From positions 33,976,001 through 34,040,000 of the forward strand of contig OX597830.1 of assembly GCA_951406725.2 (NCBI GenBank): a stretch of 64,000 bases of DNA, written 5' to 3'. Below are positions 35,447 through 39,473 of the stretch, piece by piece (the stretch's first letter is position 1; every line of letters starts with the position of its first letter). The notes beneath the pieces were generated by a model, which did no database searches, was not told where the DNA came from, and was given only the letters and a program-made list of their open reading frames with translations. A program made the translations under genes and the position numbers. This DNA is from Octopus vulgaris. Lineage: Eukaryota.

Positions 35447-38400
35447 ATGGAGGATCAGTCCCTTAACTGCTACGTTGACCATTTTGAACAGAAATTCACG
35501 ATTAGTAGACCAAGATACACTCGTTCAGATCTGATTGCAAATGTAGATTACGAAAGAGTGGACCGCTCTTGTAACTTTGCTGAAGATGTTTCTATCAAAG
35601 AGCAAGTCTCTCATTCTGTGGAGAGTACTCCAGTTGCCGCAATGAAAGCAAATCCTGCTGATGGAAATGATGCAATGAAAGATCAAGCTTTCTATACAAA
35701 CGAAACCTTTCCAGGTGTTGATAGGTTTGAAAATTTCTTGCTCGACTCAGATATCCACAAAGATAAGGTGATTGTAAAAGCTAGAGATTTTGTTGAGGGA
35801 GAAGTTGTGCATCAGGAAACAATTGAAATATTGCTCAAAACTCAAAAGAATATTGAAGTTGATATTGATGAAATGCAAGCTGATGATAAAGCTAAGGAGA
35901 CAGCTACAACAAGTTTATACATCAACCCTGAAAAGAATATTGAAAAGAGTCTTCAGAAAATGCAAGCAGGTGGTAGAGATACGTCACCTGCAGTAAGAAA
36001 TTTAGCCCTCAGTCATAAATTTGGAACTGAAGCCGATTTAAGGATAAAAGATATCAAGTCTGCAAAGACTGTTGAAGTAGGAATTAGTCCAAGACAAGCT
36101 GGTAGTAGTGACACACCAAATGCGAGCAAAAGTTTAGCCTTTACACCTAAACTTAGAACTGAAGCTGAATTAGGTGTTAACACTCTCAGATCTGAAAAGA
36201 ATATTGAAAGTAGTGTTGGTCTAAAACAAGTTGGTGGTATGGATACATCAACTGAATCCAAGAATTTAAGCTACACTCCAAAGTTAAGAACTGAAACAGA
36301 ATTAGGAATTAAAAATCTAAAATCTGAGAAAGCAATTGGCGTTGGGGTTGATTCAAGACAAGCAGGTGGTCTAGATACGTCGACTGAATCAAAGAATTTA
36401 CAATATACTTCGAAATTCGGAACTGAAGCAGAGTTAGAAGTTAAAAAACTCACATCTGAGAAAACTGTTGGCATTGGAATTGATTCAAGACAAGCAGGTG
36501 GTATGGATACATCGATTGAATCCAAGAATTTAAGCTACACTCCGAGATTCGGAACTGAAGCAGAGTTAGAAGTTAAAAAACTCACATCTGAAAAAACTGT
36601 TGGCATTGGAATTGATTCAAGACAAGCAGGTGGTATGGATACATCGATTGAATCCAAGAATTTAAGCTACACTCCGAGATTCGGAACTGAAGCAGAGTTA
36701 GAAGTTAAAAGACTCACATCTGAAAAAACTGTTGGCATTGGAATTGATTCAAGACAAGCTGGTGGTATGGATACATCGATTGAATCCAAGAATTTAGCCT
36801 ACACTCCGAGATTCGGAACTGAAGCAGAATTAGAAGTTAAAAATCTTAAATCTGAGAAAACAGTTGGTGTTGGAGTTGATTCAAGACAAGCTGGTGGTAT
36901 AGATACATCAATTGAATCCAAGAATTTAACATACACTCCGAAATTTGGAACTGAAGCAGAATTAGAAGTTAAAAAACTCACATCTGAGAAAACTGTTGGC
37001 ATTGGAATTGATTCAAGACAAGCAGGTGGTATGGATACATCGATTGAATCCAAGAATTTAACATACACTCCAAAATTCGGAAGTGAAGCAGAACTGGAAA
37101 TTAAAAAACTCACATCTGAGAAAACTGTTGGCGTTGGAATTGATCCAAGACAAGCTGGTGGTATAGATACTTCGACTGAGTTGAAGAATTTAAGTTACGC
37201 TCCTCCGAGATTTGGAACTGAAGCAGAATTAGAAGTTAAGAATCTCAAATCTGAGAAAACAGTTGGCGTTGGGGTTGATTCAAGACAAGCAGGTGGCATG
37301 GATACATCGATTGAATCCAAGAATTTAGCCTACACACCGAGATTTGGAACTGAAGCAGAATTAGAAATTAAGAATCTCAAATCTGAGAAACCAGTTGGTG
37401 ATGGAGTTGATTCAAGACAAGCAGGTGGTATAGATACATCGATTGAATCCAAGAATTTAAGCTACACTCCAAAATTTGGAACTGAAGCAGAATTAGAAAT
37501 TAAGAATCTCAAATCTGGGAAAACAGTTGGCGTTGGAGTTGATTCAAGACAAGCAGGTGGTATAGACGCATCAATTGAATCCAAGAATTTAAGCTACACT
37601 CCGAAATTCGGAACTGAAGCAGAATTAGAAATTAAGAATCTCAAATCTGGGAAACCAGTTGGTGTTGGAGTTGATTCAACTGAAGCAGAATTAGAAATTA
37701 AGAATCTCAAATCTGGGAAACCAGTTGGTGTTGGAGTTGATTCAAGACAAGCAAGTGGTATAGACGCATCAATTGAATCCAAGAATTTAAGCTACACTCC
37801 GAAATTCGGAACTGAAGCAGAATTAGAAATTAAGAATCTCAAATCTGGGAAACCAGTTGGTGTTGGAGTTGATTCAAGACAAGCAAGTGGTATAGACGCA
37901 TCAATTGAATCCAAGAATTTAAGCTACGCTCCGAAATTCGGAACTGAAGCAGAATTAGAAATTAAGAATCTCAAATCTGAGAAACCAGTTGGTGTTGGAG
38001 TTGATTCAAGACAAGCAGGTGGTATAGACGCATCAATTGAATCCAAGAATTTAAGCTACGCTCCGAAATTCGGAACTGAAGCAGAATTAGAAATTAAGAA
38101 TCTCAAATCTGAGAAACCAGTTGGTGTTGGAGTTGATTCAAGACAAGCAGGTGGTATAGACGCATCAATTGAATCCAAGAATTTAAGCTACACTCCGAAA
38201 TTCGGAACTGAAACAGAATTAGAAATTAAGAATCTCAAATCTGAGAAAACAGTTGGCGTTGGAGTTGATTCAAGACAAGCAGGTGGCATGGATACTTCGA
38301 TTGAATCCAAGAATTTAAGCTACACTCCGAAATTTGGAACTGAAACAGAATTAGAAGTTAAAAATCTCAAATCTGAGAAAACAGTTGGCGTTGGAGTTGA

Positions 38401-39473
38401 TTCAAGACAAGCAGGTGGTATAGATACATCGATTGAATCCAAGAATTTAAGCTACACTCCGAAATTCGGAACTGAAGCAGAATTAGAAATTAAGAATCTC
38501 AAATCTGAGAAAACAGTTGGCGTTGGAGTTGATTCAAGACAAGCAGGTGGTATAGACGCATCAATTGAATCCAAGAATTTAAGCTACACTCCGAAATTCG
38601 GAACTGAAGCAGAATTAGAAATTAAGAATCTCAAATCTGAGAAAACAGTTGGCGTTGGAGTTGATTCAAGACAAGCAGGTGGTATAGACGCATCAATTGA
38701 AACCAAGAATTTAAGCTACACTCCGAAATTCGGAACTGAAGCAGAATTAGAAATGAAAGCTAGAGGTTTTGGTGCTGATTTGAAAACAAAAGTATATGAA
38801 TCAAATTTTGATTCTTGTAAGGAGATTCCTAAATGGAATTTCGGAGAAGAGAATAAAATTGAAACCTCAGTTACTCAGGGTCAAACATTTGATCACAAAG
38901 GCCGACCAATGGTAGATCAGAAATTTAATCTGACTTCAACCAATATCTCTCAATCAATTGCAAAAGCTATTTTGCTAAGGCGGAAATTTCAATTTGATAA
39001 TTTCGATCTTGAAAAACTTGTTCAAGCAAAGGGCGTTGAAATTTCAGAAGAAAGTTTTGAAGATGTCTATTACGACACTAAATTTTATGATTTAATTCTC
39101 TCTGATAGCTGGCTGCGTATGAGAAATGGTAAATGGGAATTGAAATTGCCAGAAACTGACGATAAAGCAAAGCTTTATACATGCAATTACATGCAAGTGG
39201 AGAAAGAAAATGAAATCCAAAAGGCTTTGAAAAAGTGGCCTCATTTGGGAACAGCTACAAAGGAAAACAAAACATTTTTGGAAGAGTTTCAATTGAAGCC
39301 ATTTGCAGAATTCTCATCAGTAAGAAAAACCTACCAGCTGCCAATGGATTACATGGTTGTTGTGGAATTTAGTCGTTTTGGATTTAATGTCGCTGTCATT
39401 GAAAAGAAGATAGAATATGAAGGAGACATCTGTGAAGCCACAAAGAACATCAATAATTTGGCAAACCAATTTG
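35447..39473 (+). CDS. THTPA: Large coding exon: ~21 x 44-aa tandem-repeat region fused to a C-terminal CYTH / thiamine-triphosphatase-like domain (probably catalytically degenerate); C-terminal exon not located
   Basis: 1346-codon open frame. Polypyrimidine acceptor ttttttttacttgcag ends at 35380. In-frame TAA at 35396-35398 precedes ATG 35447. Donor TTTG|GTAAGT at 39473|39474 (the unspliced frame stops at 39485-39487). The C-terminal ~170 aa (from ~38969) carry THTPA-type motifs RKF, FEDVYYDT, SDSWLRMR, WELK, FAEF-x-x-x-RK, FGF-x-V-x-x-x-E and I-x-x-LA-x-x-x-G. The symbol means THTPA-like; orthology is not shown. Confidence 0.85.
36017..38755 (+). repeat. Coding minisatellite, 132-bp unit (consensus KFGTEAELEIKNLKSEKTVGVGVDSRQAGGIDxSIESKNLSYTP), ~21 copies
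   Basis: Units counted directly from the translation. There is one +3-nt unit (YAPPRFG, ~37200) and one exact 66-nt half-unit duplication (37613-37678 / 37679-37744). Degenerate partial copies extend 5' to ~35835. Confidence 0.97.

What the first reader, a model, noticed from the sequence alone, without database searches (positions are those of the whole stretch)
35447..39473. Thiamine-triphosphatase-like CYTH domain at the end of a ~900-aa array of a 44-aa repeat
Seen: one uninterrupted frame with ~190 aa of N-terminus, ~21 copies of a 44-aa unit (TEAELEIKNLKSEKTVGVGVDSRQAGG.D.SIESKNLSYTPKFG), a ~70-aa linker and a CYTH domain. Known: animal THTPA is a ~200-230-aa stand-alone triphosphate-tunnel enzyme. 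I do not recognise the repeat. Its alternating hydrophobic/polar segments (ELEIK, VGVGVD) separated by Gly/Pro turns could form a beta-rich repeat or an extended tether (inference). This may be a lineage-specific repurposing of THTPA as a giant repeat/scaffold protein.
Basis: partly seen in the sequence, partly recalled or inferred. Interest (0 to 1): 0.85.

Follow-up and report, generated by a model that had tools for sequence, protein, structure and literature searches.

The report
Octopus thiamine triphosphatase turned repeat-tethered pseudoenzyme
The only detectable thiamine-triphosphatase gene of this octopus carries about twenty tandem copies of a 44-residue repeat and has lost the metal-binding residues the enzyme needs, so it likely works as a non-catalytic binding module on a long, variable tether rather than as an enzyme.

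Summary
One 4.1-kb exon (35381-39473) encodes a 193-aa N-terminus, 20.5 copies of a 44-aa unit, a 79-aa linker and a THTPA-type CYTH domain. Contigs of four probable-RNA runs end at its splice sites and run from the tail of the last repeat through the CYTH part. The 17-codon last exon lies 388 kb downstream.

It is the only THTPA-like locus found in the genome. O. bimaculoides has the same layout with 8 units.

The long N-terminus is mollusc-wide: 20 of 22 long homologues start with a D[HR]xE motif and continue with an acidic, mostly non-repetitive linker.

Octopus has lost both EXEXK glutamates and the site-1 glutamate, and no canonical Lys-bearing tail exon was found. It keeps the basic and aromatic substrate-binding face, and the domain is 164/167 identical between two Octopus species. 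Four long homologues, one a named bivalve, lost EXEXK independently.

Best reading: a likely THTPA pseudoenzyme (binding module) on a length-variable tether, analogous to vertebrate Jhc1. The beta-solenoid model of the repeat (1 of 5 AF2 models) is unreliable. Ligand, partner and tissue are unknown.

The parts
35381..39473 (+). Giant first coding exon (4093 nt). AG acceptor at 35379-35380, GT donor at 39474-39475.
   Evidence: Sequence. Contigs start at 35380 with 105-177 further letters in 3 of 4 runs. They end at 39474 with 208-457 further letters in 4 of 4 runs. Flanking bins 35148-35321 and 39498-40000 have zero depth.
35381..35446 (+). 5' UTR part of the exon, with an in-frame stop at 35396-35398. 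The upstream UTR exon was not located.
35471..35512 (+). Mollusc-conserved N-terminal motif, aa 9-22 (hydrophobic-hydrophobic-D-[HR]-x-E-x-K-hydrophobic-x-S-P type)
   Evidence: Found in 20 of 22 homologues of 400 aa or more and 0 of 126 under 340 aa. D11 and E14 are invariant in alignment A1.
35447..36025 (+). N-terminal region, aa 1-193. Acidic and predicted disordered; its last 60 aa look like decayed precursors of the repeat (by eye).
   Evidence: FoldIndex -0.03. No Pfam match. 171/193 identical to O. bimaculoides.
36026..38734 (+). Tandem array of 20.5 x 44-aa (132-bp) units, aa 194-1096. The 5' units are diverged and the 3' units homogenised. 45-aa unit at 37082-37216; 22-aa half unit at 37613-37678.
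   Evidence: O. bimaculoides has 8 units, including the same 45-aa unit. The repeat matches only this locus in the genome.
38735..38971 (+). Linker, aa 1097-1175. Met1103 is the start of the 257-aa O. sinensis RefSeq model.
38972..39473 (+). THTPA-type CYTH domain, aa 1176-1342. Changed (mouse numbering): E7>L1176, E9>R1178, E81>Q1250, E157>V1317, D147>E1307. Kept: K11, Y39, W53, R55, R57, K65, Y79, R125, E159.
   Evidence: AF2 model of the O. sinensis protein has pLDDT above 90 over most of the domain. Foldseek best hit 5a65, E=1e-14. VIA Z 13.6, rmsd 4.2, 181 aligned.
39474..64000 (+). Start of a 388,390-nt intron. The last coding exon (17 codons plus stop) lies outside the window at G000:C17:34403864-34403916.
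   Evidence: Single genome-wide pattern match, with a polypyrimidine-CAG acceptor in the right phase. The same tail is in the O. sinensis and O. bimaculoides RefSeq proteins.

Best explanation
This is the octopus THTPA gene, whose CYTH domain has lost its metal-binding glutamates and likely acts as a non-catalytic binding module (pseudoenzyme) at the end of a predicted mostly disordered, length-variable 44-aa repeat tether. Shown: a spliced, transcribed exon; the only THTPA-like locus found; a THTPA fold in the model; EXEXK and the site-1 Glu lost; basic and aromatic pocket residues kept; strong conservation after a long octopus stem branch. Inferred: (1) It cannot hydrolyse ThTP. (2) The cationic tunnel still binds an anionic ligand (a thiamine phosphate, polyphosphate or an acidic or phosphorylated peptide) without turning it over. 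(3) The mollusc-conserved N-terminal motif docks on a partner. (4) The array is a spacer that sets the reach between the two ends and expands by unequal crossing-over.
For: Catalytic loss: octopus reads L-x-R-x-K where homologues read E-x-E-x-K, and V replaces the site-1 Glu. In PMC4641920 (sections 19, 21) the site-1 Glu is invariant in characterised TTMs, and mutating Glu2, Glu4 or Glu169 of AtTTM3 strongly reduces activity. A profile of canonical 'GK' tails finds nothing in the window plus the next 400 kb (best E 0.53), while a left-out Haliotis tail scores 3e-5. Constraint: the CYTH part is 164/167 identical to O. bimaculoides against 239/272 for the non-repeat flanks (Fisher p=5e-5), after a stem branch of 1.8 changes per column. 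The fold is confident and the spliced tail forms a helix aligned through mouse residue 203. Orthology: only this locus matches octopus, hemichordate or oyster THTPA queries. The 22 long rows fall on one side of a branch (SH-aLRT 88). Tether: homologous linkers vary from about 200 to 770 aa, are acidic and mostly score FoldIndex below 0. Unit number is 8 versus 20.5 in two congeners. Precedent: Jhc1, a THTPA-derived pseudoenzyme lacking EXEXK (bioRxiv 10.64898/2026.02.04.703868, parts 1-3 of 4 read).
Against: No activity, ligand, partner, tissue or protein-level evidence exists. E159, D37 and all basic catalytic residues (R55, R57, K65, Y39) remain, unlike in Jhc1. No contig spans the array, so a full-length mRNA is inferred, and the runs are only guessed to be RNA. 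The letters beyond the donor were not printed, so the join to the distant exon rests on RefSeq proteins and splice phase. Run X9 has two single-contig loose ends inside the exon (36315, 39205) that I cannot explain. The array's FoldIndex is slightly positive (0.04) and 1 of 5 AF2 models folds it. Selection among units is weak: pN/pS 0.41; transversions p=0.03, transitions p=0.39. In the 147-row quick tree the cephalopod rows did not group with the other molluscs. Genome searches score only the best candidates, so a very divergent paralogue is not fully excluded.
Confidence: 0.55

Rival explanations
1. The 44-aa units fold into a beta-solenoid or curli-like rod, possibly self-assembling, so the protein is a rigid structural fibre capped by a dead CYTH domain. 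This is compatible with the pseudoenzyme part of the best reading.
For: The best AF2 model of 4 units is all-beta, three strands per unit, pLDDT 80.7, pTM 0.66. Top structural neighbours are CsgA (Z 10.0, rmsd 8.3, 93 aligned), FHA (Z 7.4) and FapC (Z 6.8). Unit length is strictly kept apart from one +1 unit and one half unit.
Against: The other 4 of 5 models have pLDDT 27-31. AF2 gives confident false solenoids for near-perfect repeats (PMC11795689, abstract). Foldseek TM-scores are at most 0.22. The Atlas model of the O. bimaculoides protein has mean pLDDT 0.39. Other molluscs manage with non-repetitive linkers.
Confidence: 0.17
2. The array is a nearly neutral coding minisatellite tolerated in a disordered linker. 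What matters is only the C-terminal domain, perhaps also made as a short form from Met1103.
For: Copy number differs 2.5-fold between congeners. Selection among units is weak. RefSeq O. sinensis has a 257-aa model starting at this Met. Five other long homologues (of 20 non-Octopus rows tested) have their own unrelated 35-75-aa duplications.
Against: The N-terminal motif is conserved across molluscs. The 5' unique region is spliced and covered in the same runs. All length changes in 2.7 kb keep the frame. No contig shows a joint into the CYTH part (table 5 empty).
Confidence: 0.15
3. The domain keeps a residual or altered catalytic activity, for example metal-poor phosphohydrolase or Vtc4-like transfer chemistry, or it is completed by the N-terminal motif supplying an E-x-K strand.
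For: Y39, K65, R55, R57, R125, K11 and E159 are kept. Vtc4 lacks the acidic patch yet is active (PMC4641920, section 21). The N-terminal motif resembles beta-1 (E-x-K-hydrophobic).
Against: Vtc4 keeps the site-1 Glu, which octopus has lost. The likeness of the motif to beta-1 is weak: median rank 8 of about 184 sites, best site in only 8 of 86 domains. The motif is also present in orthologues with an intact EXEXK.
Confidence: 0.11
4. Assembly artefact or a decaying pseudogene.
For: The exact unit count rests on one assembly. No read set spanning the array was seen.
Against: Units differ by 0-51 nt, with only one identical pair among 19. Contigs match variant units, including the 45-aa one, with 0-1 mismatches. 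The same architecture is in O. bimaculoides. The frame is intact and the domain conserved.
Confidence: 0.02

Closest known systems
Mammalian 25-kDa thiamine triphosphatase (THTPA; PDB 5A64, 5A65, 3TVL)
   Same: Best sequence and fold match. W53, Y39, K65, R55, R57, Y79 and R125 are kept. It is the apparent orthologue.
   Different: About 1359 aa against 230 aa. EXEXK, E81 and E157 are lost. The canonical tail is replaced by a 17-aa tail from a distant exon. It carries an N-terminal motif and a repeat array.
Jhc1, THTPA-derived ciliary-tip pseudoenzyme of non-mammalian vertebrates (bioRxiv 10.64898/2026.02.04.703868)
   Same: THTPA fold with EXEXK lost, disordered regions, and a proposed protein-binding role.
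   Different: Jhc1 is a duplicate beside an intact thtpa, has internal IDRs, lost the basic residues too, and is reported absent from invertebrates. Here the single gene itself changed, the basic face is kept and the extension is N-terminal. I did not align to Jhc1. No ciliary evidence exists here.
Long mollusc THTPA orthologues (Haliotis XP_046550597/599, Patella KAK6185519, Saccostrea XP_061197312, Argopecten XP_069113896, Solemya KAL5021149, Potamilus KAK3596884), annotated as uncharacterised or CYTH-domain proteins
   Same: N-terminal D[HR]xE motif, acidic linker, C-terminal THTPA domain and a short alternative tail.
   Different: 18 of 22 keep EXEXK and none has this 44-aa array. Haliotis also has a canonical-type tail isoform.
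Mediator Med18/Med20 (non-catalytic tunnel fold)
   Same: TTM fold that appears to have lost catalysis (PMC4641920 passage). Weak fold hits (Z about 8).
   Different: Unrelated lineage with no THTPA signature residues.

Membership tests
CYTH/TTM superfamily | PF01928 match above the gathering cut-off | tested here: met
   34.4 bits against 23.2
CYTH/TTM superfamily | Eight-stranded tunnel fold | tested here: met
   AF2 model matches 5a65: Foldseek E 1e-14; VIA Z 13.6, rmsd 4.2, 181 aligned. This is a predicted model only.
Active CYTH metalloenzyme | EXEXK motif on beta-1 (metal site 2) | tested here: not met
   Reads L-L-R-R-K in both Octopus proteins
Active CYTH metalloenzyme | Invariant site-1 glutamate (E157 mouse, E169 AtTTM3) | tested here: not met
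   V1317; the neighbouring E159 is kept
THTPA | Basic and aromatic substrate residues Y39, W53, R55, R57, K65, Y79, R125 | tested here: met
   All 7 are present (numbering from the alignment, PMC4641920 and PMC8615392)
THTPA | Canonical C-terminal plug tail (GK-M motif, Met195) | tested here: not met
   No such exon in the window plus 400 kb downstream; the positive control was found. A substitute helix is predicted from the 17-aa tail.
THTPA | Orthology (only THTPA-like locus; groups with mollusc THTPA) | tested here: met
   Tree support is moderate (88) and the grouping was not recovered. Synteny was not tested.
THTPA | Mg-dependent ThTP hydrolysis | not testable with these tools
   Needs an assay; predicted absent
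Jhc1 | Loss of basic residues R55, R57, K65, and being a vertebrate paralogue | tested here: not met
   The basic residues are kept and the gene is a single-copy mollusc orthologue
Beta-solenoid / functional amyloid repeat | Reproducible solenoid fold of the repeat | tested here: inconclusive
   1 of 5 AF2 models; CsgA Z 10.0 at rmsd 8.3

The most novel reading that the evidence does not exclude
Molluscs turned THTPA into a two-ended tether (N-terminal docking motif, long spacer, tunnel domain). Octopuses and a bivalve clade then independently killed its catalysis while elaborating tandem repeats in the spacer. In octopus the 44-aa array forms a beta-solenoid ruler of species-specific length that positions a ThTP- or polyphosphate-sensing dead tunnel, and octopus would be a natural THTPA-activity knockout that accumulates thiamine triphosphate.
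Probability: 0.15. Interest if true: 0.8.

Novelty: new variant of a known kind. Interest (0 to 1): 0.57.

Why it matters
The role of thiamine triphosphate and THTPA is an open question. A review (PMC8615392, section 18) says all metazoans except birds have one TTM with ThTPase activity, with fish and pig nearly inactive.

Octopus appears to add a lineage where the only THTPA is catalytically dead yet strongly conserved. That points to a non-catalytic function of the fold and predicts ThTP accumulation, which is easy to measure.

It would be a second, independent THTPA pseudoenzyme after Jhc1, and possibly a third if the bivalve clade holds. It also exposes an uncharacterised mollusc-wide long form, and alternative last exons shared by a hemichordate and abalone. 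My ten literature searches found none of these described.

Tried and rejected
- Complex prediction of the N-terminal 36 aa with the CYTH domain: no answer (score 0.00; alignments were not used).
- N-terminal motif as a duplicated beta-1 strand: only weak likeness.
- Pfam hits on the repeat: PelB_C scored over its cut-off, but 0 stretches passed on their own; SNase and others were under their cut-offs. All rejected as summed-repeat noise.
- Atlas searches of the repeat and of the N-terminus: no usable hit.
- Second PF01928 hit on C5: an exon of a CyaB-like CYTH gene by its motif (recalled), not matched by THTPA queries.
- Word-based protein searches found no octopod beyond the O. bimaculoides/O. 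sinensis cluster, so the loss cannot be dated within Octopoda.
- Last exon inside the window: not there.
- Nested genes in the intron: the 150 longest of 202 complex ORFs of 95 aa or more gave 4 mariner fragments only. This is insensitive to small exons.
- BLAST self-comparison for repeats failed its own positive control and was replaced by a diagonal test.
- Two column labels were mis-numbered ('E78' is E81, 'D145' is D147) and were corrected. Rows P0105 and P0134 were mis-aligned there and re-read.
- One search dropped 5 of 152 rows (3 without the anchor motif, 2 too short). One search used a hand-picked 42 rows.
- No holder run is on record as RNA. I laid 4 of the 24 runs listed.
- Literature: 0 papers for octopus+THTPA, LOC106876779 (24), THTPA+mollusc (35), ThTP+squid (84) and cephalopod+CYTH (93). 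Nothing relevant on THTPA isoforms (90, listing only) or in PMC4624897 (34, 39, passages). Supplements of the Jhc1 preprint (its PSI-BLAST tables) were not seen and might list mollusc proteins.
- Earlier scan findings: none bear on this.
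Full report
OBSERVATION. The frame 35399-39487 is open for 1362 codons. From ATG 35447 it gives 193 aa, then 903 aa of repeats (19 x 44, one 45, one 22), a 79-aa linker and a CYTH domain (PF01928 above cut-off). All 5 PDB sequence hits are mammalian THTPA. The repeat is far beyond chance (3365 against a shuffle maximum of 56) and matches nowhere else in the genome (18 matches, all in this frame). Units differ by 0-51 nt, and the first three are the most diverged.

GENE STRUCTURE AND EXPRESSION. 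An acceptor precedes 35381 and a donor follows 39473. I laid 4 of 24 listed runs, from 4 studies; all are contigs and only guessed to be RNA. In 4 of 4, one contig runs from 38725 (the tail of the last repeat) through the linker and CYTH part to 39474 and continues with 208-457 other letters. In 3 of 4, a contig begins at 35380 after 105-177 other letters. The flanking intron bins have no depth apart from an interspersed repeat at 34.8-35.1 kb. This is the pattern of a spliced transcript, and no joint into the CYTH part was listed. No contig spans the array. X9 has two unexplained single-contig loose ends (36315, 39205). RefSeq proteins of O. bimaculoides (XP_052829955, 809 aa, uncharacterised) and O. 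sinensis (XP_036366379, 257 aa) end in a 17-aa tail. Its coding sequence occurs once in this genome, 388,390 nt downstream, behind a CAG acceptor in the right phase. The full protein would be about 1359 aa. O. bimaculoides has 8 units and shares the 45-aa unit, so the array expanded on both sides of it. The genome is evidently an Octopus close to O. sinensis (inference from near identity).

ORTHOLOGY. Octopus, hemichordate and oyster THTPA queries each find only this locus. The only other PF01928 hit is an exon of a different CYTH gene. The search of cluster representatives gave 621 hits, of which 150 were listed. Among those, 22 other proteins are 400 aa or longer with the domain at the C-terminus. 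I looked up 18 of these 22: nine are named, all gastropods or bivalves (Haliotis, Patella, Nucella, Babylonia, Gigantopelta, Solemya, Potamilus, Saccostrea, Argopecten), and nine are unnamed. Twenty of the 22 begin with a D[HR]xE motif that 0 of 126 short hits have. Their linkers are acidic and mostly predicted disordered. The two closest hits (45-46% identity, unnamed transcript contigs, probably squid or cuttlefish by inference) group with octopus (98). In a 42-row tree the 22 long rows lie on one side of a branch (88, not starred); the larger quick tree did not resolve this. So the long form is an old mollusc feature and only the array is octopus-specific. Five of 20 other long rows have their own short, unrelated duplications.

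ACTIVE SITE. Against mouse THTPA, octopus has L-x-R-x-K for E7-x-E9-x-K11, Q for E81 and V for E157. E159, Y39, W53, R55, R57, K65, Y79 and R125 are kept. The two cephalopod-like rows and 18 of 22 long rows keep EXEXK. Four rows forming one branch (91; one is Potamilus) lost one or both glutamates independently. PMC4641920 (sections 19-21 read) shows that these glutamates form the two metal sites, that the site-1 Glu is invariant in characterised TTMs, that their mutation impairs catalysis, and that the C-terminal plug helix lines the thiamine pocket. Saccoglossus and Haliotis each have two last-exon isoforms, a canonical GK-type tail and a short tail. In octopus, a profile of 26 canonical tails finds no such exon in the window plus 400 kb, although it recovers the left-out Haliotis tail at 3e-5. 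AF2 still folds the domain confidently, with the short tail as a helix, aligned to 5a65 through residue 203 (Z 13.6). The domain sits on a long octopus stem (1.8) but is 164/167 identical between the two Octopus species, against 239/272 in the non-repeat flanks (p=5e-5). That is the pattern of change followed by new constraint, not decay.

REPEAT. It has no credible Pfam or Atlas match. One of five AF2 models is a beta-solenoid (pLDDT 80.7; the others about 30), with curli and beta-helix neighbours. This is the artefact described in PMC11795689 (abstract seen), so it is inconclusive. Codon constraint among units is mild. Given the disordered, length-variable linkers of orthologues, a flexible spacer is the most likely reading.

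MECHANISM. Most likely (0.55) this is a dead THTPA tunnel that keeps a cationic, aromatic-lined pocket and binds an anionic ligand or partner without hydrolysis, tethered by the array to an N-terminal docking motif. Loss of activity is a strong inference from the residues. Ligand, partner and tether role are untested. Rivals: a folded solenoid rod (0.17), a neutral minisatellite with or without a short isoform (0.15), residual catalysis (0.11), artefact (0.02).

COMPARISON AND NOVELTY. By descent and fold it is THTPA; it fails the tests for an active CYTH enzyme. It works like Jhc1 (preprint, parts 1-3 of 4 read; supplements not seen) in being a THTPA-derived pseudoenzyme, but it is not Jhc1: the basic residues are kept, and it is the single orthologue rather than a duplicate. 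The protein exists in RefSeq as uncharacterised. Ten searches of the open-access library found no description, but subscription journals are not covered. Verdict: real, a new variant of a known kind, interest 0.57.

Noticed in passing
window:43696-46034: A 33-bp minisatellite of about 71 copies inside the THTPA intron. Several frames are open for 200-450 codons but are broken by indels, so it is probably non-coding. One 27-base probe was not found in the 56 loci fetched.
   Followed up: partly
L003 (G000:C5:105074982-105075104, minus): Exon of a second, CyaB-like CYTH gene with an intact acidic motif (E-L-E). The family assignment is recalled from the motif.
   Followed up: partly
P0020/P0180 (Saccoglossus) and P0034/P0178 (Haliotis): THTPA has alternative last exons (canonical plug tail versus short tail) at the same point in a hemichordate and a gastropod. 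Many other hits also end in short tails. This could be a conserved activity switch.
   Followed up: partly
P0084, P0094, P0105, P0134: A branch of long THTPAs (one is Potamilus streckersoni) that independently lost EXEXK glutamates; all four also carry 35-75-aa linker duplications.
   Followed up: partly
P0043, P0044, P0078, P0090: THTPA-like domains fused to an N-terminal module that looks like an AMPK-beta/CBM48 glycogen-binding domain. The label is recalled and was not scanned.
   Followed up: no
L014:1499-1557 (G000:C17:34403864-34403922): The last coding exon's stop codon is followed immediately by a consensus donor (GTGAGT), so a further 3' UTR exon may exist. Another frame of this exon is also open.
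   Followed up: no
window:18765-19229, 20078-21110, 51244-51924, 59093-59620: Transposon remnants: mariner-like at 18.8 kb and 59.1 kb (the latter PF01359); LINE-like at 20.1 kb and 51.2 kb (by appearance).
   Followed up: no
window:34870-35135: Highly expressed interspersed repeat (SINE-like) just upstream of the exon; it collects thousands-fold contig depth from other loci.
   Followed up: no
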